Shown: piece by piece, positions 4,263 through 43,720 of the stretch
Position numbering within the stretch: the stretch's first letter is position 1
Layout: every line of letters starts with the position of its first letter
Assembly (NCBI GenBank): GCA_016710965.1
Contig: JADJTW010000011.1
Location: 27,040 to 91,039, forward strand
DNA length: 64,000 nt
Origin: Flavobacteriales bacterium
GTDB taxonomy: Bacteria > Bacteroidota > Bacteroidia > Flavobacteriales_F > PHOS-HE28
Direction: 5' to 3'
Notes under the pieces: generated by a model
What the model saw: the letters and a program-made list of their open reading frames with translations, nothing else
Databases searched by the model: none
What the model was told of the DNA's origin: nothing
Program-made: the position numbers and the translations under genes

Positions 4263-5594
4263 ATGAAGCACGCCCTGAACCTGTTCGCGTCGGCATTGAT
4301 GATCCTGCTCGTCGGGCAGCTGCCGGCCCAGATCAACATCCAGGAACGCCTCGAGCGCAAGGCCAAGGAGCGCCTCGAGCGCAAAGTGGACCACACCATC
4401 GACAAGGGCTTCGATAAGACGGAGGAAGAAGTGGACAAGGAAGCGCGCGAAGCCACCAAGGGAAAAGGGAAGAAGGACAAGGACAAAGAAGCCGAAGCGG
4501 GCGGTGCTGCGGAAGGTGGGGCTGCCGGGGAAGGCAAGACCGATGGTGCCGCCGCCGGTGATGCCGCACCACGCACACTGAAAGCCTACAGCAAATTCGA
4601 TTTCGTGCCCGGCGAGCAGGTGGTGGCCGTGGAGGATTTCATGCAGGACGCCATCGGGGATTTCCCCGCGAAGTGGAACACCAACAGCGCCGGCGAAGTC
4701 GTGATGATCGACGGCAAGGAGGGGCGTTGGTTCAAGCTGAACGGCACCGGCCTCTTCTATCCGGAGTTCCTCGGCGTCATCCCGGACAACACCACGGTGG
4801 AATTCGACCTGGCCGTGCTGGGCGAATACAGCTACTACTGCAGATGCCTGGAGATGCACTTCAAGCACGATGCGGAGAACCTCTTCCGCCATGAGCCCCG
4901 CTCACTGGTTTCGGTCAACATCCATCCGCAGACCGCCGGAGGATCTGAGGGCAGTACGGCCATCGCGGTACACGCCGCCGATGGTGGCCCTTTGCTCAGC
5001 AACGATCGCGGCCAATCGCAGTTCGTTCACAAGGGCGTGGCGCCCTTCGTGCATGTTGCGCTCTGGCGCCAGAAGAACCGCCTGCGGCTCTACCTCAACG
5101 AAGAGAAGGTGTGGGACATCCCCCGCGCCTTCCAGAACGACGTCAACTACCGGCTGGTCTTCGAGACCGGCAGTTGCGATGAGAGCATTCCCTACATGGC
5201 CAACCTGCGCGTGGCCGTCGGCGCGCCCGACACGCGCAACAAGCTCATCACCGAAGGCCGCCTGGTTACGCGCGGCATCCTCTTCGACAGCGGCAGCGAC
5301 CGCATCAAGCCCGAGAGCTACGGCACGCTGAAGGACATCGCCACGGTGCTCACCGAGAACGCCGCCGTGCGCGTGCGCATCATCGGCCACACCGATAGCG
5401 ATGGTGAAGACGCGGCAAACATGGACCTGAGCAAGCGCCGCGCGGCAGCCGTGCGCGAGGCACTGAACAAGGAGTTCGCCATCGATGCCGCGCGCATGGA
5501 GACGGACGGCAAGGGCGAGGCCTCACCCGCAGGGCCCAACGACACGCCGCAAGGCAAGGCGAACAACAGAAGGGTGGAGTTCGTGAAGTTGTGA
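4263..5594 (+). CDS. OmpA-family protein with K/E-rich coiled-coil region
   Basis: Signal peptide, ERLERKAKERLERK repeats and a C-terminal OmpA-like domain (IIGHTDSDGEDAANMDLSKRRAAAV...NRRVEF). Confidence 0.8.
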   Translation: MKHALNLFASALMILLVGQLPAQINIQERLERKAKERLERKVDHTIDKGFDKTEEEVDKEAREATKGKGKKDKDKEAEAGGAAEGGAAGEGKTDGAAAGDAAPRTLKAYSKFDFVPGEQVVAVEDFMQDAIGDFPAKWNTNSAGEVVMIDGKEGRWFKLNGTGLFYPEFLGVIPDNTTVEFDLAVLGEYSYYCRCLEMHFKHDAENLFRHEPRSLVSVNIHPQTAGGSEGSTAIAVHAADGGPLLSNDRGQSQFVHKGVAPFVHVALWRQKNRLRLYLNEEKVWDIPRAFQNDVNYRLVFETGSCDESIPYMANLRVAVGAPDTRNKLITEGRLVTRGILFDSGSDRIKPESYGTLKDIATVLTENAAVRVRIIGHTDSDGEDAANMDLSKRRAAAVREALNKEFAIDAARMETDGKGEASPAGPNDTPQGKANNRRVEFVKL

Positions 5595-5609
5595 AGGCTG
5601 CGGCAGCGC

Positions 5610-5635
5610 CTTTCCGAGGCGGTTACCGAGGAAAG
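5610..5635. terminator. Possible bidirectional hairpin between convergent genes
   Basis: CTTTCC...GGAAAG stem with an inner CGGT/ACCG element. No clear U-tract. Confidence 0.2.
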
Positions 5636-5697
5636 AGCAGCTATTGCAACAGGAATTTAGGCGCGAGCAGCGCCGATCACCCTGTCTCGATCACGGA

Positions 5698-5960
5698 TCA
5701 CTCCACCACCATGTTCCCGCTGTACGTGCGCTTGCCGTTACTGAGGGTGACCATGTAGAAGCCGGGGCTCACGTCCCAAACATCCAGGCGTGGGCGTTCC
5801 TCATCCATGAGCAATTGCTGCTCGCTTACCATACGGCCGGTGCCATCGTAGATGCGCAATTGCAATTGCGCATCGTTTGCCAGCGCGCTGGGCACTTTGA
5901 GACGGAAGTTGCCGTTGTTGGGGTTGGCGTAGATCTCCAGGCTCGTATTCTCCAGCATGA
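5698..5960. repeat. Copy 1 of a near-identical direct repeat (3' end of paralog A)
   Basis: About 170 bp at roughly 95% identity with 7595-7770; beyond that the match decays to about 75%. Confidence 0.8.
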
Positions 5961-7387
5961 TGGATTGGGGCGTGCCAGTGAGCATGTCGTGCTTGGCCAG
6001 GAAGATGTCCATCCAGCCGTGGCTGTCGTAAGTCTCACTACCTATGGTGATGGAATATGGTACGGGTGTCACATCTGGAGGAAACGGACCGCTGACGAGG
6101 ACACTTCCATTGTCATAGGCAATACTGGAACCACTACCCATGCCTGCGTGTATCAGTTCCACTATATCCCCATCACTATCGCTGAGCGCGGAGAATGCGT
6201 CCAGGCCGGTATTCGCAGTATAGGTATTGCCTCCCAGTGCGATCTGGCCCTGCAAACTGCCGGTGAGCAACACCGCACCGGTCGGAGAGACATCGATGGC
6301 ATTGAAATCAAACGTATTCGTCCCTGAGTATTCACGGATGAACTCCATTGTGCCATCTGGACCGTATTTCGCCAGGAAGCCTCCGCCGTAGATGGTTGGC
6401 GCAATAAGTGTATCGATCTCGAAAGCAGCCGTATCGACATAAGTTCCGGCGGAATAGATGTTGCCACTTCCATCCAGGTCCATGCCGTATCGTCCAGCCC
6501 ATCCGTCGGGGAACCCATCGAGCTTCACCCATTCGGCTACGCCTGTCGCCGGATCGATGCTGGCGATGAGCTGGCCATGGCCCTGCCTGCCGAGGATCTG
6601 GATCGTATCGATCGCCGTCGTATCGTTCTCAGCGGTTATGAAAACATCTCCGTGGGCGAAGATCCGGTCGTTGAAGTAGCGCAGCACGTACGGCCGCACC
6701 CACTTGTTGATCCCATTGAACCCGGTGAAGGGCTTCACCCAGACCTCCTCGCCATCCGCATCGTATTTGCCCAGGAAGCAGCCGGTCTCCATGGGGGTGC
6801 CGCCCGCCACCGTGGTGCCGTTGTTATCCGTCGTCATGACCACCACCAGATCGCCGTTGCCATCTACCGTAATGGCCGTTGCGACCACGGCCGATGTCCC
6901 AGCGAAGCTCGTTGCGATGTTATGCGCCCAAAGGCAATGGCCATCAAGGTCCCATTTTGAGAGAAAAGCTGCGGACCATGGCGTGGACAACATGCATGTA
7001 TCCATCAACAAGAAAAAGTCGTAGTTGCCAATTACATAGAGATGCCCGGCATTGCTGTCCAATACCAGTGATTGGATGGCTGAGCGGTCGTAGCCCTCGA
7101 ATTGCCTCACCCATACCAGGTCGCCGTTCCCGGAGTACTTGGCCAGGAATTCGTCCCTGCTGCCCGGAAGCGTATCGCCTTCAGAAGTAGCAGCTATCGA
7201 AATCCGTTGGGCCGGCTGAACCAGCATACCAGCCGAACATGTAAACGGAATGTTCGGTATCCACGGCGCCGATATAGCCGCCATCCAAGCCCGGCCCTCC
7301 GATCTGCGTTGACCATTGCCAGGTTTGCGAGAAGCATGGTTGCAGTGAAAACACTCCCGTTAGGAGCAGTGCGGTCCTCATGGTCAT
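5698..7387 (-). CDS. SBBP beta-propeller-repeat surface protein with T9SS C-terminal sorting domain (paralog A); one frameshift near 7185
   Basis: N-terminal signal peptide in ORF 7181..7387 (MTMRTALLLTGVFSLQPCFSQ). Repeats such as FLAKYSGNGDLVWVRQF. C-terminal T9SS domain (NPNNGNFRLKVP...YMVTLSNGKRTYSGNMVVE). The N-terminal and main ORFs are in different frames and overlap at 7181-7284. Confidence 0.65.
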
Positions 7388-7500
7388 TGTCTCAGGAGTT
7401 TGCGGCTGTATCGCTGGCCAGTGGCATGCACGATCAGGGTGTACTCCGCCGGTGCGAATTCAGATAGGTCGAGGATGGTGCTCGTGGCGTTCATCGCGCG
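7384..7500 (-). pseudogene. Orphan remnant of a T9SS C-terminal domain
   Basis: ORF 7384..7581 ends ...STILDLSEFAPAEYTLIVHATGQRYSRKLLRQ. This resembles the last strands of a T9SS sorting domain, with no upstream gene body in frame. Confidence 0.3.
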
Positions 7501-7532
7501 TGAGATGAGCAATTCTCCGGTTTTAAACTCGC

Positions 7533-7561
7533 GCAGGGTCTCTCGTCTTCGAGGACCCTGC
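7533..7561 (-). terminator. Hairpin GCAGGGTC-N13-GACCCTGC downstream of paralog B
   Basis: Perfect 8-bp inverted repeat. It is followed on the minus strand by gcgagtttaaaacc, a weak U-rich stretch. Confidence 0.3.
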
Positions 7562-7594
7562 TCCCAACAGCGAAGGCGCAACCCATGCCCGAAG

Positions 7595-7860
7595 CTACTC
7601 CACCACCATGTTCCCGCTGTATATGCGCTTGCCGTTGCTCAACGTTACCATGTAGAAGCCGGGGCTCACGTCCCAAACATCCAGGCGTGGGCGTTCCTCA
7701 TCCATGAGCAACTGCTGCTCGCTTACCATACGGCCGGTGCCATCGTAGATGCGCAATTGCAATTGCGCTTCATTGGCCACGCGCTGGGTACCCTCAGGCG
7801 GAAACTGCCCTGATTGGGGTTGGCGTAGATCTCTAGGCCTGTGTTCTCCAACTGCATGGC
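7595..7860. repeat. Copy 2 of a near-identical direct repeat (3' end of paralog B)
   Basis: Direct comparison with 5698-5960. A stretch of about 110 bp has only one mismatch. Confidence 0.8.
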
Positions 7861-9276
7861 AGGGGGTACACCGGTGATCGATCCGTACTTGGCGAGTACG
7901 ATGTCCTCCCAACCATGGGTTGTGTAGCCTTCACTGCCGAATGTCGTGGTGCCCCAGGGGAAAAATTGTGAAAATCCACTACAGACTACTGCATTGTCCC
8001 CACTAACCTGCCGTTGCCCGGCCGTGCCCAGGGGGCTGGGCAAACGCCAGTGGATTGCCTAAAGAATCAAGCGAGGCAAGGAAGAGGTCACCATACTGAG
8101 ATGCGGAAAAGTGTTTCCGCCAAGTTCTATTTGCTCATTGAGTAAGCCTGTAACAAGCAGATTGCCGCTGGCTAGGACATCTATCCCTTGAAAGAAGAAT
8201 GAGCCGGTACCGTCGAACTCACGGACCCATGCTGGCGAACCATCAGATGTGTACTTGATCAACATACCATTCAAATCGTTATCTGGTGATTGAAGAGTAT
8301 CGTATGCCACGACGGCATTCTGATAGTAGCCACACGCTATATGGATGCTTCCGTCCTGGGCGACATCCATTTGAGCGGGATTTCCCCTTGCGCCCGGGTA
8401 TCCATCCAATCGAATCCACTCCGCAATCCCACTAGCGGTGTCGAGACTTGCTAGAATGAATCCATCCCCTATTCGGCCAATCACGCTTATCGTGTCCACG
8501 GTTGTGGTATCGCCCGATTGTTGGATATGGGCAAGTCCGTGCCCAACAATGCGAGCCCCATTCAGCCTCAGCGTACTAATGCCGACGCGCTTCTGATTTC
8601 CTTGATAGGAACAGAACGGCTTGGCCCAGATCAATTCACCGCTTGCAGACAACTTGACCAAGAAGGACCCATTGGGAATTGATTCGTTCTCCACCACTGT
8701 AGTTTCGTATTCATCGGTGGACAACGAAACAAAGATGCTCCCACCGGGCAGCTTGGCCATCGTAATGCCGTATACCCTGCTCGACTCGAAGGCTAGGCTT
8801 GTGGCAATGTTCCTCACCCACAGGCATCGCCCGTCCAAAGTCCACCTGGAAATCGCCACTGCAGCGGAGGGTGATGCAACCGAACAGGGTGTCCAAATAA
8901 CAGGCTGCGATATAGTTCGCGAGAACAATAGCGACGAGCCGGCACTGTCGAGAACAACAGCGCTGAGATTGACATTGCTGGTTGGACTGTTCAAGCTTCG
9001 AGCCCAAAGGAGGGCTCCGTTCGCATCGGTTTTTGCTATGAAACTGTCATCGCTGCCCAATAGCGTGTCTGTGCCGAAGTAGCAATCGGAGTAGGTCATG
9101 GATGTCCATGGTCTGGCATAGTCGCCGAACCAATAGATGGCACCTTGTGCATCGATCGCTCCAATGTGCGCATTGTCAATTCCAGGACCGCCTACATGCT
9201 GTGACCAAAGCCATTCTTGGGCGACTAGCCGAGCAACAAGAAAGAGGCATGGAAGAGTGAGGAATGCACGCATGGC
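7595..9276 (-). pseudogene. SBBP beta-propeller-repeat T9SS cargo protein (paralog B), split over three reading frames with an internal deletion
   Basis: ORF 8059..9354 (signal peptide MRAFLTLPCLFLVARLVAQ plus SBBP repeats), ORF 7723..8043 and ORF 7595..7912 are consecutive pieces in different frames. About 60 aa are missing relative to paralog A between GGNTF and SEGYTTHGW. Confidence 0.55.
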
Positions 9277-9287
9277 CTTAGTGTTTG

Positions 9288-11707
9288 ACAACGATTTTCG
9301 AATGCAGCAGATGCTCGTTGGAACTAACGCGGAGCGTGTACGTCCCCGCAGCAACGGTTCGAAGGTCCAACGCGAACTGCGGGCCCCCGAACGATTTGCT
9401 CAAGACCCGATTGCCGCGGCTATCGAGCAACTCGACACCGATCGACCCTGTTTCAACCCAGGCCCCTGCTTCTATTGGGATGTCGAAGTGATCGCCAGGT
9501 TGGTTTGATACGGATGCTCGGAGGACTCGCTGTTGTATGCACGCCGAGTTCGATCTCCTTGTCCTGTTCCACGAAGGACGTCGGGGGGCCTTGGACGAAG
9601 GACACCGATGTACTCCGCAAATTCACGCTCGCGATGTCCTCGCACGTGAAGACGACCGGTGCGGTATGCGCATGGACTTCGCAGCCTGTGAGGGCGCGGA
9701 ATTCCTGCCCCCAATGCACAGCGTAGCGGGCCTTCATATCGGAGCGGCCGCCCACAACTTCGTTCTCGAAGGACAGGCTTGCCAGTGCTTCGAAATTCTG
9801 CGTCTCGTTCGACCAGACAACAGCGTACTCCACAACCTGGTCCACCTGGCTGACCAGTGATTGCAGCGCGTGGGTGGCTCCTGGCAGAAAAGGATAGAAG
9901 GCATTGTCTTCTCCCACGTAGCCCTTCTTCATCCATGCCGTAGCATAAGCGCCGAATTTGATGTCCCAGATGATTTTGTCCAGCACCTCCCCGGGCACGT
10001 TAGGGTTCAATGGATTGCCTGGCGCCGGATCATACGCCCTTATCTCGAATTCTCCGTTGTCATCGGTGTAGCCCGAATGCGTGTACATTGTCGGACTCGG
10101 ATTCGGGAGAAAGGGGTTATCCACACCAACCCATCCGACGGCGTGAACCGCCGCGCCTGCAATCGGGTTTCCACCTTGATCAACCAGCCTTCCTGTAAGC
10201 GTTCCATAGTAGGCCTGGCCCCACACGTCAGTGTACACCGTTGAGTTCGATGGATGCCCGTACGGATTGTAGTACGCGTCGTTCATATCCACCGTGGGCG
10301 AGACCGGACCGTATTGCACGGATGGCGCTGGCGGGTTAGTCACCCACGAGACGAAGGTCTCCGCCGCCTGCTTGCGCAATGCCTCGTAGCCCGTGATACC
10401 GTTGACGAGGTCCATCGGTCCGGGATCGCCCGATTTGTGGATCCCATAGTACCGTTCGAGTAGTCCTGCGGTGAGTTCGGATCATTCGGTATCGGCGGCC
10501 ATGGCGGCGGATCGGCGTACCAGTGGATGTTCTGGAAGACCCACCACCCATAGCCGGCACAGCGCGAGCCAAGGACGAGCGGGAATGTGGCGCGCAGGAA
10601 ATCATCCTGGTCCTGCTCGCTTCCGAGCAGGTACGGATACGCATAGCTTGGATAGCCATTGGGATTGTCCTGTCCTTGGAAACCGGTCTCAGTGATGATG
10701 TACGGCTTGCGGATGAAACGGTCGTATTCGTACAGCATATCGGCGTAGCGCTTTGTGGCCTTGTCCAAGAAGGTGGAGGGGTCATCGTCATGCTCGAACC
10801 GATCGTGAAGCAGATAGAGATGCATGGTCGCAAAGTCGACCTCGAGCAGCAACGGATCCCAACCTTCGCGCCAGAGGTCGTCCATGAACACACCCCCGAT
10901 GGTGGTAAGATGGCCGGGATCCACCTGTTTCAGCCTCTGGTTCCAAGCGTGCGCTATCTCACAGATCTGCGCCCTTGTGTGTTTCGGCAGGACCTCTGGC
11001 CTTCCATCGGTAAAAGTCGGCTCACCGTAGAATTCGTACGCGAGCAGGTTCGTCACATCCTGTGCCTCAATGAAGGTGGCAATGGCCTCGATGTAGTCGA
11101 GGTGATCCTGGATCTCGGGCCAATCGGCGTTCAGGTCGAGCGCATGAACATCGCCGCCTATCTCGAACAAAACCTTCATGCCCACTGTATTCGCCAGACT
11201 GCATACTTGGAGCACCGTGTTCATTTGGAATTCGAACACCAGGTTCGCTTGCGGATCGTACGGCGGGTCCAGGTTGAGGAACAATTCGTCCTGTCCCGAT
11301 GGAAAGGCCTTGATCGACAGCAGATGCCCGTCGCCGGCCTTCTTCGTCACCCGGCTCAGGTATCGGATGGTATTGAATCCCATGGCTTTCATCTCGTGGA
11401 GGTCTTGCACGATGCTGGCCGGACCAGCCGCGATGCTGGGATAGGCGCACTGTCCGGTGGCGCCGAAGAAGGACGAGCGGCCGTAGCCGCAAGGTGCCAG
11501 CTCGGCAGCGCTGGGGTCGAGGGACGGTGGAGCATTGGAAGGATAGAAGAAATCGATGAAGTAGTTCATCACCATCGGGAAGAACGGTGCTCCGTTCTCA
11601 TCGATGAACTGATCTCCTTGAAGCCGGATATAGCCGGGTTGCGCCATCGCAGTGCCTACGGCAAGGCACACGAGGAAGACAAGTGCTCGTGCCATGGCGC
11701 TGCTCAC
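9288..11707 (-). CDS. GH5-family glycoside hydrolase with CarbopepD_reg-like module and T9SS C-terminal domain; at least two frameshifts
   Basis: ORF 10340..11707 has a signal peptide, GFNTIRY, YGEP and YIITETG (GH5 catalytic motifs). ORF 9453..10415, in a different frame, contains LTGRLVDQGGNPIAGAAVHAVG...YTDDNGEFEI. A T9SS C-terminal domain (PGDHFDIPIEAGAWVETGSIGVELLDSRGNRVL...GTYTLRVSSNEHLLHSKIVVKH) was found by manual translation of 9288..9485 in a third frame. Confidence 0.65.
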
Positions 11708-13243
11708 TTCTTGGCGGCTATGGTTTCCTCCAACCGTGCGATGCGCTCTTCCAGTTGCAGGATGTACAGCGCCTGCTCCTCCACCACCTGCAGCATGCGC
11801 ACCTGCAGGTCGCCCACTTCCACCCCGCCCTTGGCCGCCACTTCGGCGGCGCTGGGTATGCCGGGCAAGTGGTAGTGCTCATTCAGGTATTCGCGCAACT
11901 CGTCCAAGGAGCGCAGCGCGTAATCGTTGGCGAAGACGAAGTCCGGGAAATCCTCGGCGGTCACCAGCACATCGCGGGTAACGATGCCGCCTTCGACGTA
12001 GAGCTTGTACAAGCTGCTCGTGCCGAACTCGGCGTTGCCGATCCCCACTCGGCCGATGTCATCGACCCGCAGGCGCACCGCATCGGAAACATCGTCCCAG
12101 AGGAAGAAGTCCTGCCCGCCATCGGCGTCGAAATCGCAGCCGAGCCCCCAGCGTTGCGCGCCCGCAGCGGCGAAGCGGATCTCGCTGTGCGCATTGCCCG
12201 CTGCGGTGTTCACCAGGCTCATGCCACCGCGTTCATCGGCGTGGTGTACTTCGAATCGGTTCGTCGGATCGGATGAGCCGATGGCTACACGGCCTGCGGA
12301 TGTTATCCGCATGCGTTCCTGGTTGTATGTCTTCAATACCAACGGTTGCTCATTGATGCTCCCGAGGAATCCCGAAGTTGCTGATATAGTTGCCGCAGCG
12401 TGTCCACGGCAGTGCTCCGTGGTCAGGACATCCTTCGGGTATCGTCGGAATATCGCCGTCGACAAAGCGCTTCAAGTTGCCCAAGCTGTCGATGTAGAGC
12501 ATGGCTGGTGTGTTGGCGGAGAGGCCGGGGAACTTCATGACGCCGTCGGCCGGATAGCCGGAACCGTTCGATGCCATCGCTCTTGAACACCACGTCCTGC
12601 GCATCGCTGGTGCCCAGGTATTGGGCGTCGGGGTCGGTGTTGGCATTGCCGCCCATCTGCCAATCGCTGCGCTCGGGCTGGGTAAGGGTGATGCGCTCGC
12701 TGCCGACCCTGCATTGGTTGGCATCGGTAACGCTTACCGCGTAGGGCAAGGCGCCGAGCGCGCTGCGGTCCTGGGTGTACACCTCATCGCCCCAGTCGTA
12801 GCTGTAGGGCGGCACGCCGCCTTCCATCGTTACATCGATGCTGCCGTTGTAGCACTCGTAGCAGCTGATGTTGTAGCCGCTCAGGTACCGGTAGGGCGTT
12901 GCGCTTACTTGAAGGGCCACAGGCTCCACCAAGGTGATCTGCGCCTGCACCTCAACGAAGTCGGCATCCTTCACGCTGATGATGTAGAGCCCGGCGGCCA
13001 GACCGGTCTGGTCCTCGGCGTTCGATCCATTGGACCACTGGATGATGTACGGCGCAGTGCCACCCGTGATCGTGGCATCGATGGCGCCGTCCTGCGCGCC
13101 GAAGCAGGTGATGTGGTAGCCGTTATGGTCCGGCGCGTCCAGCGTGACTTGGAGGGTTTGCGCGGAGAGCGCACTAGCGCATAGCGCGAACGTCAGCAGC
13201 GAGATGGATCTTGCGGGGGGGGCAGAAAACGCTGTGTGCTCAT
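11704..13243 (-). CDS. SprB-repeat cell-surface protein with a tail-fibre / peptidase-S74-like C-terminal chaperone domain; split over three or more frames
   Basis: The ATG at 13243 is followed by an 8-C tract. With 9 C the reading frame gives MSTQRFLPPPARSISLLTFALCASALSAQ, then SprB repeats (YHITCFGAQDGAIDATITGGTAPYIIQWSNGS; ISCYECYNGSIDVTMEGGVPPYSYDWG). ORF 11704..12465 ends ...HLPGIPSAAEVAAKGGVEVGDL...LQLEERIARLEE, which is S74-like. Confidence 0.55.
13215..13222. repeat. Poly-G homopolymer (8 G on the + strand; poly-C in the minus-strand coding sequence)
   Basis: ttgcGGGGGGGGcag. It lies 21 nt downstream of the ATG of the SprB-like gene. A tract length of 9 would restore the frame. Confidence 0.9.
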
Positions 13244-13307
13244 GGCCTTGGGTTCAGTAGTTCGCTTTCGACAGGTCGAAGGTGCGCATGCCTCTGGGCT
13301 ATTCGCA

Positions 13308-13325
13308 ATACCTGTTTCCAGGTAT
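13308..13325 (-). promoter_or_regulatory. Palindrome site 1: ATACCTG-TTTC-CAGGTAT (GAAA centre on the minus strand)
   Basis: Perfect 7-bp arms. Sits about 65-80 bp upstream of the minus-strand SprB-like gene start. Confidence 0.4.
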
Positions 13326-13335
13326 TTTTCGAGTG

Positions 13336-13359
13336 TAATGATGTCATTAAGCATCATTA
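13336..13359. promoter_or_regulatory. Inverted repeat TAATGATG-N8-CATCATTA
   Basis: Perfect 8-bp arms in an AT-rich stretch between palindrome sites 1 and 2, inside a divergent promoter region. Confidence 0.35.
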
Positions 13360-13369
13360 GCAGCAGCAT

Positions 13370-13387
13370 CTACCTGGAAACAGGTGG
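13370..13387 (+). promoter_or_regulatory. Palindrome site 2: CTACCTG-GAAA-CAGGTGG
   Basis: One mismatch in the arms. Sits about 80 bp upstream of the plus-strand FAD oxidoreductase gene. Confidence 0.4.
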
Positions 13388-13467
13388 AGGAGCATATCGG
13401 TCGTGAGGCGAGCGGGTCTGGGTAACCAGCATTCCCTGTAGCATGGAACTCACCCCATCTTCGCCTC

Positions 13468-24478: not shown

Positions 24479-24543
24479 CAGCGGCCTGCAACCCCTTGCG
24501 CGAGGGACCGTACACACGGCCCCGCTGGGGACCGGTGGCCCGC

Positions 24544-25371
24544 ATGAAAAGCTATCTTCGGCGGCCGAAGCGCCTCAAAGCCATGCGACTGCACCACCTC
24601 CTTCCCGCCCTCGCTCTTGCAGCGAATTCCTTCGCCGGCACCATCGTGCTCGAAGGCCATTACCAGGGCAAGAACCTCTTCATCCAGAACCCTTTCTCCG
24701 AAGCCGGTGTAGGCTTCTGCGTGTTCGAGGTCACGGTGAACGACCAGATCGCTACCGACGAGATCAATTCCAGCGCATTCGAATTGGACCTCGGCAACTT
24801 CGGCCTGAAGGTGGGCGATGCTGTTGTGGTGAAGGTGCGCCACAAGGACGGTTGCACCCCGGTGATCCTGAATCCCGAAGTGCTGAAGCCCAAGAGCACC
24901 TTCGACATCGTGAAGCAGGAGGTGAGCAGCGATGGCACCTACCGCTGGACCACGGCCAATGAGACCGGCGAACTGCCCTTCATCGTGGAGCAGAAGCGTT
25001 GGAACAAATGGGTGAAGGTCGGCGAAGTGATGGGTGTGGGCCGCCCCGGCGAGCACAAGTACGAGTTCAAGGTTACGCCGCACTACGGCGAGAACTACTT
25101 CCGCGTGAAGCAGACCGACCTCACGCGCAAAGCGCGTTTCAGCGAAGCGGTGACCTTCACCGACCCGAGCGTGCAACCCGTTACCTGGGGCCCGGTGAAA
25201 CCCAAGGAGGAGATCGTGTTCTCGGCCAATACGCTATACGAGATCTACGATCAGTACGGCAACATCGTCAAACGCGGCTACGCGAACAAGATCGACATCA
25301 CCACCTTGAAGAAGGACCTCTACTACCTGAACTACGACAACAAGATGGGGGAGACCTTCCTCAAGCGTTGA
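24544..25371 (+). CDS. Secreted hypothetical protein
   Basis: Signal peptide MRLHHLLPALALAANSFAG; no recognised domain. Confidence 0.45.
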   Translation: MKSYLRRPKRLKAMRLHHLLPALALAANSFAGTIVLEGHYQGKNLFIQNPFSEAGVGFCVFEVTVNDQIATDEINSSAFELDLGNFGLKVGDAVVVKVRHKDGCTPVILNPEVLKPKSTFDIVKQEVSSDGTYRWTTANETGELPFIVEQKRWNKWVKVGEVMGVGRPGEHKYEFKVTPHYGENYFRVKQTDLTRKARFSEAVTFTDPSVQPVTWGPVKPKEEIVFSANTLYEIYDQYGNIVKRGYANKIDITTLKKDLYYLNYDNKMGETFLKR

Positions 25372-35083: not shown

Positions 35084-36562
35084 TCAAACGATCTTATCAG
35101 GACGACGACGTATGCGAATGACTTTGATGCCGCCGGGCCCGGAAAGGTCTTGCTTGGTCAGGTGGATGACCACACGGCATTTCGTGACCGTGGTCATGGG
35201 CTTGTTCGTATTGCCGATTATGATCGGCCGACCAATGAGTTTGTCCGATCTGCAGCCAAGGTCGATATCACCAACACTTGTGCTGTCTACGAAGATGTAG
35301 TTGTATTGGTCGTCGCGGCGACGGGTGTCAGTGGCTTCCACCTCCGATTCTGCGACAACTTTCCCGCCTTCAGCGAACACGGGATTTCGATGGGTCTTGG
35401 ACCATCCATCAACATGCTCATCATAGATGGCCTCCCCGTTCACCTTCAACCATGCCCCCACTTCCTTCAACCGCACGTAGGCCGTTGAGTCGAGTTGCCC
35501 ATCCGGTCCCGGTGCCACGTTCAGCAGAAGACTTCCCCCGCGCGAGACCACTTGCACCAGCGTGCGGATGATCTCGTCCGTGCTCTTGTACTGCTCGTTC
35601 GGCACCCAGCTCCAGCTCGTGCCCATGGGCATGCAGGTCTCCCACGGCACGCCGAGGTCGGCATCGGGTACGTGGCCTTCTGGTGTGATGTAGTTCTCGA
35701 ACTCACCCCCCACGGTCCGATCCACAACGAGCAAGCCGGGCTGCTTAGCACGCGCCATCGTCGCGATGCGCTTCATATCGATGTCCTGTTCGATGGTGAT
35801 CGCCTTCTGCCAACTTACGCTGGTGTCGATGCTGCTGAAGGGGCGTACCCAGCCGCCGTCGAGCCAGAGGATGTCCACAGGGCCATATCCGGTCATCAGC
35901 TCTTCGATCTGCGCATAGGTGTGGTCCTTAAACTCCTGCCAACGCTCGGGATGCTTTGCGGGCAGGTAGTTCACGCTGCGGTCCTTCGGCGGGAAGTAGG
36001 ACCACCAGTAGTCGGGGCTGTGCCAGTCGGGCTTGCTGAAGTAGGCTCCTGTCCACAGTCCCTCGTTGCGGAAAGCGGTGAAGATTTCCTTGGTCACGTT
36101 GGCACGCGGGCTTGTGCGGAAGGGCGTGTGCGGCGAGGTGATCCGGTAGTCCGTGGTCTTGGTGTCGAACATGCAGAAGCCGTCGTGGTGCTTGGTGGTG
36201 AAGACCATGTACTTCATGCCGGCGTCCTTCGCGGCCTTGGCCCACTTGTCCGGGTCGAACTTCACCGGATCGAACGTGCGCTGCAGGTTCTCATAGTTGC
36301 GCACGTACTCGGCATAGGTCTTCCCGTGCGACGAGTCGCGGCGGCACCAGTCCTCATCCTCCGGACAGATGCTCCAGCTCTCCACCACGCCCCATTGGCT
36401 GTACGGCCCCCAGTGCATCAGCAGGCCGAACTTGAGGTCCTGCCATTGTGCGAGCTTGTTCTGCACGACTGGATCCACCGGCGCCATGTACGGAGCTTGC
36501 GCAAGGCCATTGATCGAGGCCGATAGAACAAAGAGCCCGGTGAATGCGACCCCGTAGTTCAT
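35084..36562 (-). CDS. Alpha-L-fucosidase, GH29 (second copy)
   Basis: FTTKHHDGFCMFDT; signal peptide MNYGVAFTGLFVLSA. Start trimmed from the ORF-track extension. Confidence 0.85.
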   Translation of the reverse strand: MNYGVAFTGLFVLSASINGLAQAPYMAPVDPVVQNKLAQWQDLKFGLLMHWGPYSQWGVVESWSICPEDEDWCRRDSSHGKTYAEYVRNYENLQRTFDPVKFDPDKWAKAAKDAGMKYMVFTTKHHDGFCMFDTKTTDYRITSPHTPFRTSPRANVTKEIFTAFRNEGLWTGAYFSKPDWHSPDYWWSYFPPKDRSVNYLPAKHPERWQEFKDHTYAQIEELMTGYGPVDILWLDGGWVRPFSSIDTSVSWQKAITIEQDIDMKRIATMARAKQPGLLVVDRTVGGEFENYITPEGHVPDADLGVPWETCMPMGTSWSWVPNEQYKSTDEIIRTLVQVVSRGGSLLLNVAPGPDGQLDSTAYVRLKEVGAWLKVNGEAIYDEHVDGWSKTHRNPVFAEGGKVVAESEVEATDTRRRDDQYNYIFVDSTSVGDIDLGCRSDKLIGRPIIIGNTNKPMTTVTKCRVVIHLTKQDLSGPGGIKVIRIRRRPDKIV

Positions 36563-38094
36563 GGCACCATGATCCTCACCATGCACGCCTGCCCGATGGT
36601 GCTTAACCGCACGATCAGCAACCCGGGAGGAAGACCGGTCCTGGGGATCCGAGCATGCCCTGCGGTCCATGAGGTCCGTTCACTCAAGAGCGCCCTTCCC
36701 GCAGCATCGAACAACTGCACGCTTCCCGGACCCGAGGCATCCGGCCAGAGGAACTCCAACCCCGCGGCCGTCAATGTCGCATAGGCGGGCTGATGCGCCA
36801 GTGCCTCGGGAACTCCCACGTGCTCGGGTGTACGACAGAAGGAATAGGTGTCCACCAATGAAGCGGTTGTGCTCATGCTGTCGGTGCGCCAGCCACTGAA
36901 GGTGATGCATATATCATCGCCATCATCTTCCACCCGCACTTCTCCGAACTGCCCGTTCCAGTAGTTGGGATTCGGATGCACGCCTCCTTGGTTGAAGTTG
37001 CCTCCCTTGTACGAGCCTGTGCGCGAGAGGGCGGCCGCTTGGAAGATGGGATAGTGGTAGCGCAAGTCGTGCCCACTGCTGAAGTCCGCGTTTGCGCCAT
37101 CGTCTATCGCCAGCATGTGCGCATCGCCGCTGAGGATGAACAGGTCCTTCACCTGTTGATCGAAGAGGAAGTCATTGATGGCGGTTCGCTCATCAGGCTG
37201 ACAGGCCCAGTTCTCCGGATACCCCACGCTGTTCCATGTAAGCGGCGAAACCCACGCGGCAACGAGCCCGTGATCGCGGGCATACAGGAACTCGCCCAGC
37301 AGCCAGGTGAACTGCCCGATATCCATCATAGCCTCGGAACCTTTGGAGCTCCGCAGGTCGCTCAGGATGAAATGCACGCGGCCGATGGTGAACGACTGAT
37401 GCACGCTGGTGGCGTGGTGCAGTGGATAGTGAGGTACGTACTCGCGATAGGCACGCGCAGCGCTGGCCTTGCCTATAGAGCTGCCATCGGAGCCGTTGCC
37501 GCAGAAGTCGTGGTCGTCCCACACATACGCGATGGGCACCTTGTGAAGGAACTCTCGGATCGACGATGTGCCCAGCACGTCTTCCCTGTACGGGGCTCGG
37601 TGCTGCTCCACGTCAATGGAGTTGGGGTCACGGTAATGCAAGTCGCCCGTGCTGAGGAAGAGGAGCGGATGCGTTTGGTGCATGGCCTCCCACACCGGGT
37701 GCGTGCTCGTTCCGTTGCACGACCCGACCACGAACGAGAAGTTGCACGGTCCCTCGTGCGGGGTGCGGAAGCGGCCGACATGCGCAGCAGCCGTATCCAG
37801 GATGCCGTTCACCTCGAACCGGTAGAGGTAGGCTTGGTGCGGCTGCAAACCGTCCAACTCGAACGCAACCACGCGGTCATCGGAGCTGTCGGCTGTTGCG
37901 AAGGAGGAATATGACAGCCCATCGAGGCAAGGCCATGCGCAGTAGGCCAAGCGTATGGGATCGGTGCCGGAGCTCATGCGCGCCTTGACCGTTATCGAAG
38001 AAGGTGTGAGCGCCCCGCTCCAGAATAACAGCGTGCTGTCCTGTGCCTGCGCCACGGTGGCGCATGCGAGCAAGGGTATGAGCAGCGGCCACAT
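36559..38094 (-). CDS. PhoD-like metallophosphatase with T9SS C-terminal domain
   Basis: GDLHYRD and VWDDHDF metallophosphoesterase motifs; C-terminal ...GLLIVRLSTIGQACMVRIMVP sorting domain. Confidence 0.65.
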   Translation of the reverse strand: MWPLLIPLLACATVAQAQDSTLLFWSGALTPSSITVKARMSSGTDPIRLAYCAWPCLDGLSYSSFATADSSDDRVVAFELDGLQPHQAYLYRFEVNGILDTAAAHVGRFRTPHEGPCNFSFVVGSCNGTSTHPVWEAMHQTHPLLFLSTGDLHYRDPNSIDVEQHRAPYREDVLGTSSIREFLHKVPIAYVWDDHDFCGNGSDGSSIGKASAARAYREYVPHYPLHHATSVHQSFTIGRVHFILSDLRSSKGSEAMMDIGQFTWLLGEFLYARDHGLVAAWVSPLTWNSVGYPENWACQPDERTAINDFLFDQQVKDLFILSGDAHMLAIDDGANADFSSGHDLRYHYPIFQAAALSRTGSYKGGNFNQGGVHPNPNYWNGQFGEVRVEDDGDDICITFSGWRTDSMSTTASLVDTYSFCRTPEHVGVPEALAHQPAYATLTAAGLEFLWPDASGPGSVQLFDAAGRALLSERTSWTAGHARIPRTGLPPGLLIVRLSTIGQACMVRIMVP

Positions 38095-40325: not shown

Positions 40326-43300
40326 TCAGGGGCGCACCACCACGCGTTCCATCACCACTTCGCCATCCGTCTCGATGCGCACGGTGCAGACACCGCCGGA
40401 TATTCCTTCGAATGAGATATGCCGCTGCTCATCCTGGATGTACCGCGTGCGATAGGGGATGAGCTGGCCCAGCGCATCGTAAACATCAACACGTGCGTTG
40501 GCGGGCGCCTCGATCCACAGCGAACCATCGGTGGGGTTGGGATAGCACCTTGCCCGTGCATGCTTCCACACGGTGCTTACAACGCGACTGTGCTCGGCGG
40601 TGCCATCATTGTCCACCATGAAAAGCCGGTAGTAGTTGGTGCCCTTCACCGGTGCGCGGTCGAGGAAGGCGTAAGAGGTCGTAGTGAAGGATTGTCCCTG
40701 TGCGGGCAATGTGCCGATCCGGGTCCAGTTCATGGCATCGGCACTGCGCTCAACCTCGAAGCGTTCGCTGTTGATCTCCGATCCCGTGGTCCACTGGACA
40801 CTGATTCCTTCGTTCTGGGCAAGGGCGCCGAGGTCCATCAGCTCAACAGGCAGGCTGCTATTGCCGAAGATCTGCACGTTGTCCATGTAGAAGAAATTGC
40901 CGTAGGCGTTGATCGCCACGAAGCGGACCTGGACCGTCTGCCCGTTGTAGGCAGCGATGCTGATGGTGTTCGTTTGCCACTGCGAGCAATTCGTTGGCGC
41001 CCAGGCAGCGGTGGTTGCAGCCGTGGTAGCCAGTGCTGTTCCAGCTGCGTAGTAGAGCTGGGTCCAGCTGGCGCCGCAGTCGTTGCTGATGTCCACGCGG
41101 AAGGCATCATAGTAACCAGGACCGTAGGGTGCGAAGGCGCGATCGAAGCGAAGCGTTGAAGCGGTGAAGCCGGAGAGGTTGATGCGCGGCGTAACAAGGC
41201 GATCCTCCTGTCCAACGCCGTTGTAATTGTAATGGTCCATGCTCCACACGCGCGAGCTGCCGCAGTTGATGCCGTTGGTGATCACGGGCGCGGTCCAGGT
41301 GGTAAGACCATCGGGGTTTTCGAGCCGCCAGCCTGTTGGCGCAGGCACGGTGTTCACCGTGAGCCCTTCGGTGAATGGCGCTACCACAGGCGTGGTGTTG
41401 TTCACCGTCACGCTGCTCGTCGCTTGGTCGTTGCCTGCGAAGGAATCGCCAGCGAGCAATGTGCTCACGGTGACGGTGTGCGCGCCCGTGGTGCCGATCA
41501 CCAGCGGTGTCGCGAACGTGAAGTTGGAGCTTGCCCCGGCCGCGAGCGTGCCGGTGTACGTCTCGGCCACCCATGCGCCGGCATCGAGGCGGTACCGCAC
41601 CGGGAAGTTGCTCTGCGCGGCCGAGCCGAAGTTGCGAACCGTGGCTGTCACCAGCGTGCTGCCACCCGTGCAGTCGATGGTAGCCGAGCCCGCAGGCACC
41701 AGCACCATGGAGACTCCCACGTTGTTAGGTGCGGGAGTGTCGTACGCTTCGACCTGATCGGTGCGGCTTGCAGCGCTGCCCTGGCTGGTGCTTACGCCGA
41801 GCCCACGCCGAGCGAAGGCGTTCCACAAAGTGGTTTGATGCACCCCGCCATACAGCGCAGCATCGGCGTTCAGGATCGCGTTGCGCGCATCCACGAAGCC
41901 GGGGTTGCAGGGGGTGAGCTTCATGCCCTCGATCACCAATCGCATGGCGATGTTGTTGCCGCCGGTGCCCGTGTAGAAGTTGGGATCGAAGCCGTGGGCG
42001 TTGATCAGCTCCCAGCTCATCTCCCACAGGATGGTACACCACACGAAGCCGATGCCGTGCGGCACTGCGATGGTGGCTGTATTGTTGGTTGCACCGTAGG
42101 TGTAGGCGTTCTGCGCGAAGGAGGTGCTATACGGCGCAGGGCGAATTCCGGTGCCGGTGACAGCTTGCCCGATGACGTAGGTGCCGACTCCCCTGCGGTC
42201 AGTGCCCTGATCGCCGGGCTCGATCGTCATCATCAATCCGATCCAGTCGCTCCAGCCTTCACCCATCTGCTCGGCATTGGCCAGACAGTTCGTGTTGGCC
42301 GGGCCCCCCACTAGGCGATTGCTTATGCCGTGGCCGTATTCGTGCGCGATGATGCAGTTGTCCAGGTCGCCATCGCGGTTGGGTGTGGTGTAGTTCCACA
42401 CGTACATCTGCATGCGCGGCGAGGTGCCTTCTGCTGGTGTGGCGAAGTTGGCATTGTTGGTGCCGCCGCCGTCCTGTGCATCGGCGAACACGAAGTCGTT
42501 GCCTGTGCCGCCACGGCCGTAGTTGTTCTGCTGGAAGTTGCCGCTGGGGTCATCGAAGCCGTACTGGTACCACACATCGTGGATGATGTTGTTCCAGTAG
42601 TAAAGGTTGGTGATGGCGGCGTTCTGGTAGGTGGCCGGTGCGTTCGCCAGATTGATGGCGTAATCGAAGTCGAGCGTAGCGCTGACTGGTGATGCACCGG
42701 TGCCGTTGTTGTTGTTCGCGTCCTCCTGTGCCCAGCAGTTGTTGCCGCGGGTGGTGGTGTACTCCGGTCCGGCAGCGCCGTTGGTGTCATTCCAACCGTA
42801 GAGGGAGGCGATGCCGCCGTTGGTCCAGGGCGCATTGCGGAGCGCTCGTGCGCCGTGGTTCGGACTTTCCACGGGCATCGGATACACGTTGAGGTCGTTG
42901 GGTGCCGCTGGCATGGGCATCTCCTCCGGCGCGGCATGCGTATGCGCGGCGCAGGCTTCCTCATCGAAGTTGCACTGGCTTACCCAATCGTTACGCCCCA
43001 GCTCATCGCCGGTCATCGCATCGATGCGCACGTTCCACCAATGCGACCCATCGGGCGTGTAGTGGTTCACGTTCCACGCCAGCCGCAGGGCCTCGCCGAC
43101 GCCCACCCAGTACAATTTCACTTCGATGGGGTGATCCCCGAAGGCACTGCCGTCGAATCGCACAAGGCGTCCTTGGTCTTCGCTTCCGATCGGTGAGGGC
43201 AGCGAACTGCCGGGCATGGTCAGTGCGAGCGCCGCGCCCAGCGCCTGTTGTGCGCTTAGGCCAGGAGATGCGTTCAGCGCGCGCCGTGCCAGTTGCATCT

Positions 43301-43604
43301 CCGCCGCCTGGTTGAAGGCGATCAAGCCGCCGTTCGCTCCGAAGTGGAGAGCGACATCGCCATTCCACACTTCGATGCCCTGCCAGCGCTGGCGAAACAC
43401 CACGTGCCGCAAACCGCCGCTCGTGTAATCGTCCTTCACAGCAAGGTCCAGGATGTCCGCTTCATTGAAGCCTGCCCGGGTCAATTCCTGTCGGGCAACG
43501 GTGTGGGCATCGATGCCGCGGTTGGCCACCGTGCCGCTTTGGGCATACAAGCCACCCAGGCAAATTCCGAAAGCGACAGCGGAAGGGAGTATCCGTAGGA
43601 GCAT
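40326..43604 (-). CDS. M36 (fungalysin) metallopeptidase with T9SS C-terminal domain
   Basis: IAHEYGHGISNRLVGGPANTNCLANAEQMGEGWSD (M36 HExxH region); signal peptide at MLLRILPSAVAF; C-terminal sorting domain. Confidence 0.85.
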   Translation of the reverse strand: MLLRILPSAVAFGICLGGLYAQSGTVANRGIDAHTVARQELTRAGFNEADILDLAVKDDYTSGGLRHVVFRQRWQGIEVWNGDVALHFGANGGLIAFNQAAEMQLARRALNASPGLSAQQALGAALALTMPGSSLPSPIGSEDQGRLVRFDGSAFGDHPIEVKLYWVGVGEALRLAWNVNHYTPDGSHWWNVRIDAMTGDELGRNDWVSQCNFDEEACAAHTHAAPEEMPMPAAPNDLNVYPMPVESPNHGARALRNAPWTNGGIASLYGWNDTNGAAGPEYTTTRGNNCWAQEDANNNNGTGASPVSATLDFDYAINLANAPATYQNAAITNLYYWNNIIHDVWYQYGFDDPSGNFQQNNYGRGGTGNDFVFADAQDGGGTNNANFATPAEGTSPRMQMYVWNYTTPNRDGDLDNCIIAHEYGHGISNRLVGGPANTNCLANAEQMGEGWSDWIGLMMTIEPGDQGTDRRGVGTYVIGQAVTGTGIRPAPYSTSFAQNAYTYGATNNTATIAVPHGIGFVWCTILWEMSWELINAHGFDPNFYTGTGGNNIAMRLVIEGMKLTPCNPGFVDARNAILNADAALYGGVHQTTLWNAFARRGLGVSTSQGSAASRTDQVEAYDTPAPNNVGVSMVLVPAGSATIDCTGGSTLVTATVRNFGSAAQSNFPVRYRLDAGAWVAETYTGTLAAGASSNFTFATPLVIGTTGAHTVTVSTLLAGDSFAGNDQATSSVTVNNTTPVVAPFTEGLTVNTVPAPTGWRLENPDGLTTWTAPVITNGINCGSSRVWSMDHYNYNGVGQEDRLVTPRINLSGFTASTLRFDRAFAPYGPGYYDAFRVDISNDCGASWTQLYYAAGTALATTAATTAAWAPTNCSQWQTNTISIAAYNGQTVQVRFVAINAYGNFFYMDNVQIFGNSSLPVELMDLGALAQNEGISVQWTTGSEINSERFEVERSADAMNWTRIGTLPAQGQSFTTTSYAFLDRAPVKGTNYYRLFMVDNDGTAEHSRVVSTVWKHARARCYPNPTDGSLWIEAPANARVDVYDALGQLIPYRTRYIQDEQRHISFEGISGGVCTVRIETDGEVVMERVVVRP

Positions 43605-43720
43605 GAACCGCGAAAGGACGGCCGAAAGTACCTCGTTCCGGCTCCGAAAACAACTGGGACGACCGACGGTGGACGCCTGTCGCTCAAGGGCTTGAGCACG
43701 CCCACGGATGGTTATGGCCC

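What the first reader, a model, noticed from the sequence alone, without database searches (positions are those of the whole stretch)
5698..9276. Tandem SBBP/T9SS paralogs share a recently homogenised ~170-bp 3' segment; an orphan C-terminal-domain remnant lies between them
5698-5870 and 7595-7770 are about 95% identical at the DNA level, with about 110 bp nearly perfect, and the match decays to about 75% beyond. Paralog B also lacks about 60 codons and is split over three frames. A fragment at 7384-7500 encodes what looks like the tail of a different T9SS C-terminal domain. The cause is either gene conversion or unequal recombination that grafted copy A's sorting domain onto copy B, or a repeat-induced misassembly.
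Basis: seen in the sequence. Interest (0 to 1): 0.5.

Follow-up and report, generated by a model that had tools for sequence, protein, structure and literature searches.

The report
Gene conversion between tandem secretion-signal tails
Two old, neighbouring copies of a secreted beta-propeller-like gene have had the last ~170 bases (their secretion tag) overwritten with each other's sequence by gene conversion, which is an ordinary mechanism but turns out to be the rule for this gene family in many other genomes.

Summary
The repeat is real. Window 5700-5871 and 7597-7768 (minus-strand genes A and B, offset 1897 nt) match at 164 of 172 nt, with a 122-nt core carrying one mismatch. Identity stops at the stop codons.

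Once four single-base indels are repaired, A (562 aa) and B (559 aa) are collinear and 46% identical. B therefore does not lack 60 codons.

Synonymous sites show this is DNA homogenisation, not protein selection. Identical codons at identical residues are 36% in the body and 90% in the last 57 codons (p=6e-13). A related-strain contig shows at least one exchange happened after the strains split, and that the exchanges were patchy.

The pattern is family-wide. In 80 metagenome loci, tandem paralogs with 30-40% body identity have tails about 90% identical in DNA, against 55% for pairs from different loci. This makes misassembly unlikely.

The "orphan CTD (T9SS C-terminal sorting domain) remnant" fails Pfam and TIGRFAM but scores E=1.4e-3 with a broader CTD profile. 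Other loci have clear counterparts, where the duplicated unit is the tail of the upstream T9SS gene plus the family gene.

This is an ordinary mechanism and a new member of a known kind.

The parts
5698..7387 (-). Gene A: T9SS cargo, SBBP-like beta-propeller family. 562 aa after one base is removed. The start is ATG 7387 or, more likely, ATG 7381.
   Evidence: ORFs 7387..7181 and 7284..5698. tblastn of homologues switches frame at about 7180. Repaired translation. NCBI annotates only 509 aa, MBK8498626.1.
7183..7183 (-). Extra T that frameshifts gene A. Minus strand reads TACTTC-T-GAAGGC.
   Evidence: The related-strain orthologue L086 reads TGCTACTTCGAAGGC and is intact in one frame.
5713..5934 (-). 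T9SS type A C-terminal sorting domain (CTD) of A
   Evidence: PF18962 at E=4.1e-9 over residues 451-524 of the 528-aa ORF. TIGR04183 at 1.9e-9.
5700..5871 (-). Homogenised tract, copy A. It covers the last 57 codons and ends at the stop codon.
   Evidence: 164 of 172 nt identical to 7597-7768. Identical codons at 46 of 51 identical residues, against 70 of 197 in the body, p=6e-13.
7597..7768 (-). Homogenised tract, copy B
   Evidence: The offset from copy A is exactly 1897 nt.
5725..5749 (-). Divergent patch inside the tract. It holds 7 of the 8 mismatches, and the B counterpart is 7622-7646. Here B matches the related-strain A orthologue and A does not.
5851..5874 (.). Perfect 24-nt palindrome GATGCGCAATTGCAATTGCGCATC at the 5' edge of the tract. 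The B copy at 7748-7771 is palindromic over the central 22 of 24 nt.
   Evidence: Inverted repeat I1. DNA hairpin of -10.9 kcal/mol, z=-2.9. The tract boundary lies within 3 nt of it.
7595..9273 (-). Gene B: a divergent tandem paralog, 559 aa after three single-base repairs. As assembled it is truncated at TAG 8061-8059.
   Evidence: NCBI annotates only the first 404 aa, IPL52_07380.
8107..8110 (-). B frameshift 1: a T4 run with one base missing
8031..8035 (-). B frameshift 2: a C5 run with one base extra
7779..7780 (-). B frameshift 3: a missing C (GCG-TGG in B, GCGCTGG in A), 11 nt upstream of the tract
7396..7521 (-). Probable orphan CTD tail (the C-terminal half of a different T9SS CTD). 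It sits in an open frame spanning 7384-7594. Its stop TGA at 7386-7384 overlaps or abuts A's start.
   Evidence: Custom CTD profile: 16.5 bits, E=1.4e-3, profile positions 33-76 of 79. Smith-Waterman to U's tail: z=4.9, none of 500 shuffles as good. No Pfam or TIGRFAM hit.
9278..11707 (-). Gene U: the upstream T9SS cargo gene, split into three ORFs. Its CTD tail is at 9278-9430, and its stop lies 4 nt before B's ATG.
   Evidence: Tail hits PF18962 at 1.3e-5 and TIGR04183 at 1.6e-5. Frames shown.
7322..13406 (.). Block absent from the related-strain contig L086. It contains A's signal peptide, the remnant, B, U, and tail-fibre-like and SprB-repeat genes. GC is lower here.
   Evidence: blastn of L086 against the window, junction sequences, GC 0.545-0.586 against about 0.62.

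Best explanation
A and B are old tandem paralogs of a T9SS-secreted, SBBP-like beta-propeller family. Their bodies have diverged to about 40% amino-acid identity. The last ~57 codons, which form the C-terminal part of the T9SS sorting domain (CTD), have been overwritten by non-reciprocal homologous recombination (gene conversion) between the two copies.

Shown:
- The CTD is the most conserved part of the family.
- In the family's tandem pairs, homogenised tracts are confined to the last 180-300 nt and end at or within a few bases of the stop codon, and sequences downstream of the stops are unrelated.
- The exchange has happened more than once and in patches.
- The same concerted evolution of the tail is seen in tandem arrays of this family in many other genomes.

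Inferred:
- The CTD is probably the only segment with enough DNA identity for recombination to start. Conversion then keeps it identical while the bodies drift.
- The array itself arose by duplication of a unit consisting of the 3' tail of the preceding T9SS gene plus the family gene. This would explain the CTD-like remnant immediately before A's start codon.

Not decided: whether the frameshifts in A, B and U are real.
For: 1. Synonymous sites. Identical codons at identical residues are 70/197 in the body against 46/51 in the last 57 codons, Fisher p=6e-13.

2. Incongruent relationships. In the body, A is 42-48% identical to P0002-P0012 and B is about 38-40% identical to all of them and to A. 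Tail DNA is 95% identical between A and B, but 82.5% for A vs P0004 and 77% for A vs P0005.

3. Related-strain orthologue L086. In the core 120 nt, 8 sites read A=B but differ in L086. In the 3' patch, B matches L086 and A differs at 4 of 12 nt. So there were at least two patchy events, and at least one came after the strain split.

4. Family-wide pattern. 29 of 85 loci carry tandem copies. For pairs with body identity 0.30-0.40, tail DNA identity averages 0.90 within a locus (n=7) and 0.55 between loci (n=3092, 95th percentile 0.69). Tract lengths vary from 180 to 300 nt and are mosaic. L038 has 302 nt identical with sharp edges and a 37%-identical body.

5. No nucleotide-level constraint across genomes. 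Between-locus synonymous codon identity in the tail is 0.41, about the same as in bodies.

6. Duplication unit. In L062 and L022 the spacers are 72-78% identical in DNA to the region just upstream of the first paralog. The L047 spacer holds a partial CTD (PF18962 at 3.9e-5) similar to the upstream gene's CTD tail. In the window, the U-stop/B-start and remnant-stop/A-start junctions have the same layout.
Against: - No reads are available, so the junction between B's 3' end and the remnant rests on a single MAG contig.
- Over-polishing of paralogous sequence in a long-read assembly could exaggerate identity in the core.
- The direction of transfer is unresolved.
- The remnant fails the curated CTD models and shows no DNA similarity to U's tail. 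Its origin from U specifically is therefore not shown.
- Some of the metagenome loci come from related populations and are not fully independent.
- Within-genome codon bias could raise codon identity a little. The same-gene body control argues against this as the main cause.
Confidence: 0.85

Rival explanations
1. Assembly or polishing artefact. The near-identical core comes from a repeat-induced misjoin, or from short reads of one copy being used to correct the other.
For: The source is a MAG. Six single-base frameshifts cluster in the 6 kb that hold U, B and A, while genes elsewhere in the window look intact. That could mean locally poor consensus. One B frameshift lies 11 nt from the tract edge.
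Against: B's tail keeps its own variants: a 7-difference patch, its own stop codon and its own downstream sequence. A's 3' junction is reproduced in an independent contig. At a baseline of about 80% identity, reads would not mis-map between the copies. The same tail-only identity occurs in many unrelated assemblies.
Confidence: 0.05
2. No recombination. The tails are alike only because the CTD is under very strong purifying selection, on the protein or on the RNA/DNA.
For: The CTD is the most conserved part of the family, also between genomes. The A vs P0004 tail is 82.5% identical in DNA against 54.5% in the body.
Against: Synonymous sites are identical in the core. Between-locus pairs at the same body divergence show only 0.55 tail DNA identity and 0.41 synonymous codon identity. 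Four consecutive conserved residues inside the tract differ at every codon, so silent sites are free to vary there. A and B share 8 silent states that the strain orthologue lacks.
Confidence: 0.03
3. One illegitimate or unequal event inserted A's terminal CTD segment into B and pushed B's original CTD tail downstream, where it survives as the remnant.
For: The remnant covers roughly the same part of the CTD (profile positions 33-76) as the homogenised tract. It lies about 60 nt after B's stop.
Against: B's CTD is family-type along its whole length, including the part upstream of the tract, so nothing was inserted. The remnant resembles a different CTD type and ends exactly at A's start, as U's CTD ends at B's start. 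In L047, L062 and L022 the spacer CTD pieces are copies of the gene upstream of the first paralog.
Confidence: 0.07

Closest known systems
Segmental gene conversion / concerted evolution of tandem bacterial paralogs (textbook cases such as the duplicated tuf genes; recalled from general knowledge, not tested here)
   Same: Non-reciprocal homogenisation of a DNA segment between paralogs in one genome, with mosaic tracts and silent sites homogenised.
   Different: Here the conversion is confined to the short secretion-signal segment at the extreme 3' end, while the rest of the genes have diverged to about 40% protein identity.
KLIKK proteases of Tannerella forsythia (PMC4404884)
   Same: Clustered T9SS cargo genes whose C-terminal domains are nearly identical while the functional domains differ (abstract read).
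   Different: The KLIKK genes encode proteases of different classes. The paper does not discuss recombination (the word has 0 occurrences). Here the bodies are homologous paralogs, and DNA-level conversion is demonstrated.
Domain rearrangement and gene conversion in Porphyromonas gingivalis surface proteins (PMC5266723)
   Same: T9SS cargo genes reshaped by homologous recombination or gene conversion within and between strains.
   Different: That work concerns adhesin-domain modules and allelic exchange, not homogenisation of the CTD itself between tandem paralogs.

Membership tests
T9SS type A cargo (Por_Secre_tail CTD, PF18962 / TIGR04183) | C-terminal ~75-residue sorting domain matching the curated models above threshold | tested here: met
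   A scores 37 bits on PF18962 (cut-off 27) and 37.4 bits on TIGR04183 (cut-off 23). The B tail scores 29.2 bits on PF18962.
T9SS type A cargo (Por_Secre_tail CTD, PF18962 / TIGR04183) | N-terminal Sec signal peptide | tested here: inconclusive
   Both genes start with hydrophobic leaders: MTMRTALLLTGVFSLQPCFSQ in A and MRAFLTLPCLFLVARLVAQ in B. No signal-peptide predictor was run. In A the leader is out of frame with the body as assembled.
T9SS type A cargo (Por_Secre_tail CTD, PF18962 / TIGR04183) | Actual secretion by a T9SS in this organism | not testable with these tools
   Only indirect evidence: other CTD proteins are present in the window, for example the M36 protease at 40326-43724.
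SBBP beta-propeller repeat proteins (PF06739) | SBBP repeats above the Pfam gathering score | tested here: not met
   A scores 14.7 bits, E=0.03, against a cut-off of 20.5. B has no hit. Many homologues carry precomputed PF06739 hits, so 'SBBP-like' is reasonable but membership is not shown for A or B themselves.
Gene conversion between paralogs | Tract identity well above flanking identity, including at synonymous sites | tested here: met
Gene conversion between paralogs | Phylogenetic incongruence: paralogs group by genome in the tract but by gene type outside it | tested here: met
   Body and tail identities and the three-way alignment with the L086 orthologue. Only one related strain was available, and it lacks B at this locus.
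Gene conversion between paralogs | Both copies physically present and contiguous in the genome (not an assembly artefact) | not testable with these tools
   No reads are available. The indirect support is recurrence in independent assemblies and the A junction in L086.
Orphan T9SS CTD fragment (the 7384-7594 remnant) | Significant match to a curated CTD model | tested here: not met
   No PF18962 or TIGR04183 hit at E<=10.
Orphan T9SS CTD fragment (the 7384-7594 remnant) | Significant match to a CTD profile in register with the domain's C-terminus | tested here: met
   Profile of 198 CTD tails, unfiltered search: 16.5 bits, E=1.4e-3 against 3767 ORF tails, profile positions 33-76 of 79, ending at the ORF's C-terminus. 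This is a home-made profile dominated by one family, so the result is moderate evidence only.

The most novel reading that the evidence does not exclude
The shared tail may not be just a by-product of recombination. Tandem arrays of this family might work as cassettes of variable beta-propeller heads on a constant secretion and anchoring module. Selection would then keep the CTD identical within a genome, for example so that one T9SS recognition, cleavage and attachment step serves all copies. The constant 3' end, and perhaps the palindrome at its edge, would also serve as a recombination handle for swapping or duplicating heads.
Probability: 0.12. Interest if true: 0.6.

Novelty: new member of a known kind. 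Interest (0 to 1): 0.33.

Why it matters
On its own this is a routine case of gene conversion between neighbouring paralogs in a MAG. Three things have some wider use.

- In this widespread, uncharacterised T9SS cargo family, the sorting domain evolves in concert within a genome while the passenger domains diverge. CTD trees for these genes therefore reflect genome of residence, not gene history. CTD-based orthology calls or typing will be misled.
- The arrays seem to grow by duplicating a unit that starts inside the CTD of the preceding cargo gene, leaving orphan CTD fragments that annotators may miscall.
- The frameshift cluster marks this 6-kb block as either decaying accessory DNA or a locally unreliable stretch of the assembly. 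Anyone using these gene models should know this.

Tried and rejected
- Looked for the source contig by exact protein look-up of RseP, P0001 and the 528-aa ORF. None was on record.
- Scanned genome contigs with protein A. This found one distant relative only, with no orthologous locus.
- The first metagenome scan with protein A found nothing. The second, using the family alignment, gave the 80 loci used here.
- Searched the large protein database with the remnant peptide. There were no candidates.
- Searched the same database with repaired B. No B orthologue exists there other than its own truncated annotation, so B's frameshifts could not be checked.
- DNA alignment of the remnant to U's tail scored no better than shuffles.
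- The loci of P0004 and P0005 are not syntenic with the window and carry a single copy.
- Considered programmed frameshifting or phase variation. The runs involved are only 4-5 nt, and two of the four A/B indels are not in runs at all, so I rejected this as unlikely.
- Considered a nucleotide-level functional element in the tail. Between-genome silent sites are not conserved, so I rejected this.
- The sigma-70 promoter and terminator scan of 5400-9600 found nothing above chance. It is not informative for Bacteroidota promoters in any case.
Full report
**What is at the locus**

Both genes lie on the minus strand.

- Gene A runs 7387..5698. As assembled it falls into two ORFs: a signal-peptide ORF at 7387..7181 and a 528-aa ORF at 7284..5698.
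- Gene B runs 9273..7595. Homologues from the protein database map onto B with three frame switches.
- Removing one T at 7183 gives an A of 562 aa.
- In B, adding a T to the T4 run at 8107-8110, removing a C from the C5 run at 8031-8035 and restoring a C between 7780 and 7779 gives a B of 559 aa.
- The two repaired proteins align end to end at 46% identity with only small gaps.
- So B does not lack about 60 codons. It uses two frames, not three.
- The source is an NCBI MAG of a Flavobacteriales bacterium. Its annotation carries only truncated versions of both genes: MBK8498626.1 at 509 aa and IPL52_07380 at 404 aa.

**The repeat**

- The repeat finder reports 5700-5882 vs 7597-7779 at 94%.
- Base by base, 5700-5871 and 7597-7768 differ at 8 of 172 positions, with a constant offset of 1897 nt.
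- The core, 5750-5871 / 7647-7768, is 122 nt with one mismatch.
- Seven of the eight mismatches sit in a 25-nt patch at 5725-5749.
- Identity ends at the stop codons (TGA in A, TAG in B), and the downstream sequences are unrelated.
- Upstream of the tract, identity falls to 0.6-0.87 per 30-nt bin. Further upstream it becomes undetectable at the DNA level.
- The 5' edge of the tract coincides with a perfect 24-nt palindrome, GATGCGCAATTGCAATTGCGCATC.
- Both tails are T9SS type A C-terminal sorting domains, or CTDs.

**Conversion or selection?**

The CTD is the most conserved part of this family, even between genomes, so protein-level selection had to be excluded. Three results do that.

- Codon identity. 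Among residues identical in A and B, the codon is also identical in 70 of 197 cases in the body but in 46 of 51 in the last 57 codons (Fisher p=6e-13).
- Silent sites are free to vary. Inside the tract, four consecutive conserved residues (V-T-L-S) differ at every codon, while the 40 codons before them differ at one silent site.
- Incongruent relationships. In the body, A is closer to homologues from other organisms (42-48%) than to B (about 40%), and B is equidistant from all of them. In the tail, A and B are 95% identical in DNA, while A vs P0004 is 82.5% and A vs P0005 is 77%.

**A related strain**

A Logan contig, L086 (SRR34398911), carries an A orthologue. Its flanks are about 92% identical to the window.

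- The L086 orthologue is intact in one frame and lacks the extra T at 7183.
- In a three-way alignment of the tails, A and B share eight silent states in the 120-nt core that the L086 orthologue does not have. At least one exchange therefore came after the strain split.
- In the 3' patch the situation reverses. B reads GTAACGTTGAGC, L086 reads GTAACCTTGAGC, and A reads GTCACCCTCAGT.
- The pattern therefore needs at least two patchy events, and the direction of transfer cannot be fixed.

**The pattern is family-wide**

- A metagenome scan with the family alignment returned 80 loci.
- 29 of the 85 loci held at that point (L001-L085) carry two or more same-strand tandem copies.
- For tandem pairs with body identity 0.30-0.40, the last 57 codons average 0.90 DNA identity and 0.82 synonymous codon identity (n=7). 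The 3092 between-locus pairs at the same divergence average 0.55 and 0.41, with a 95th percentile of 0.69 for DNA identity.
- Within the same pairs, the bodies show only about 0.46-0.54 codon identity.
- Tract lengths vary from about 180 to 300 nt measured from the stop codon, and the tracts are mosaic.
- In L038 the two copies share 302 identical bases with sharp edges, although their bodies are 37% identical.
- This recurrence in unrelated assemblies, together with the L086 confirmation of A's 3' junction, makes misassembly an unlikely cause. It also shows there is no cross-genome nucleotide constraint on the tail.

**The remnant**

The frame open across 7594..7384 ends in ...ILDLSEFAPAEYTLIVHATGQRYSRKLLRQ*.

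Evidence against it being a CTD tail:
- No hit to PF18962 or TIGR04183, even at E<=10.
- No relative in the large protein database.
- No DNA similarity to U's tail.

Evidence for:
- It aligns in register with U's CTD tail (z=4.9, none of 500 shuffles as good).
- A profile built from 198 CTD tails of the fetched loci, with the remnant excluded, scores it 16.5 bits, E=1.4e-3 against 3767 ORF tails. The match covers profile positions 33-76 of 79, which is window 7396-7521.
- Its stop overlaps or abuts A's start codon, just as U's stop lies 4 nt before B's start.
- Other loci show the same architecture clearly.
  - In L047 the spacer between two paralogs holds a partial CTD (PF18962 at 3.9e-5, positions 41-74). 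It resembles the CTD tail of the gene upstream of the first paralog and ends right at the next paralog's start.
  - In L062 and L022 the spacers are 72-78% identical in DNA to the region just upstream of the first paralog and encode full CTDs.

The most economical reading is that these arrays grow by duplicating a unit made of the 3' part of the preceding T9SS gene plus the family gene. The window's remnant would be the decayed edge of such a unit. I put this at about 0.65.

**Frameshifts**

- Six single-base frame changes lie in U (two), B (three) and A (one), all within 6 kb.
- About twenty other ORFs were checked by Pfam, chosen because their reading frames overlap neighbours on the same strand. 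Where a family matched, the match was near full-length or consistent with a separate gene, and I saw no domain split across adjacent ORFs. The exception is PhoD, which matched only part of the profile.
- This same block, 7322-13406, is absent from L086, where the A orthologue sits next to the DAO gene. It also has lower GC.
- Either this is decaying accessory DNA or it is a locally poor stretch of consensus. Without reads I cannot decide, and I rate the two as about even.

**Comparison with what is known**

- Gene conversion between tandem paralogs is textbook.
- The nearest T9SS precedent is the set of KLIKK protease clusters of Tannerella forsythia, which have nearly identical CTDs on different catalytic domains (PMC4404884).
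- Gene conversion and domain shuffling of P. gingivalis T9SS cargo is also described (PMC5266723).
- Full-text searches found no paper describing concerted evolution of CTDs among tandem paralogs. The library is incomplete, so this does not prove that none exists.

**Verdict**

- Several details of the finding are wrong: the 60 missing codons, the three frames, and only B being broken.
- The remnant is plausible but weak.
- The mechanism is ordinary. The family-wide tail homogenisation and the duplication unit are modest additions.

Noticed in passing
window 7322-13406: This 6.1-kb block is missing from the related-strain contig L086, where the A orthologue lies directly next to the DAO gene behind a different 154-nt leader and signal peptide. 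The block holds A's signal peptide, the remnant, B, U, a tail-fibre-like gene and an SprB-repeat gene. It also has lower GC (0.545-0.586 against about 0.62) and contains all six frameshifts found.
   Followed up: partly
window 5698-7321 vs L086 1472-3091: The A gene is a mosaic relative to its strain orthologue. About 800 nt are 96-100% identical with dS near 0, about 200 nt are only 76-78% identical, and the flanking genes are about 92% identical. This suggests recombination between strains or paralogs within the body of A as well.
   Followed up: partly
window 5851-5874 and 7748-7771: A perfect 24-nt palindrome encoding D-A-Q-L-Q-L-R-I sits exactly at the 5' edge of the converted tract. The core CAATTGCAATTG is also present in the distant orthologue P0004 (loci L004 and L005), but in only 4 of 99 family genes. 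Whether it promotes recombination is unknown.
   Followed up: partly
window 9278-11707 (minus strand): The upstream T9SS cargo gene U is split into three ORFs (11707..10340, 10415..9453, 9430..9278). The N-terminal 455 aa has no Pfam or NCBIfam hit. The middle part has a weak, below-threshold CarboxypepD_reg-like match. The sequence around the start of its CTD reads in several frames.
   Followed up: partly
L001 9689-9805 and 11783-11899: In GCA_020635725.1 the single family gene (P0005) is bracketed by a 117-nt direct repeat at 91% identity. The first copy is the 3' end of the upstream DUF7668 gene. The second encodes an orphan 45-aa copy of that tail after the family gene. This again looks like a duplication unit made of an upstream tail plus the family gene.
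   Followed up: partly
L001 12048-12113 and 13544-13609: Two adjacent T9SS genes that do not belong to the family share a 66-nt 3' tail at 89% identity, starting at the stop codon. Both end ...EKLASERLIVQP. Tail homogenisation may therefore not be limited to the SBBP-like family.
   Followed up: no
L047 4276-4437; L062 5662-6277; L022 4022-4646: Orphan CTD pieces, one partial and two full, lie in the spacers between tandem family paralogs. Each is homologous to the 3' part of the gene upstream of the first paralog.
   Followed up: yes
window 11704-13253 (minus strand): An SprB-repeat ORF (12423-13253) is followed in another frame by a 253-aa ORF with a tail-fibre-like C-terminus. This may be one more split gene in the same block.
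   Followed up: no
window 36559-38094 (minus) and 24496-25371 (plus): The C-termini of these ORFs score weakly (14-15 bits) with the home-made CTD profile. The first is a PhoD-like phosphatase. They may be further T9SS cargo proteins.
   Followed up: no
L001 9100-9335 and 14184-14223: Arrays of short GGTTGAGAG-like repeats lie upstream of the DUF7668 gene, with a small second cluster near another T9SS gene.
   Followed up: no
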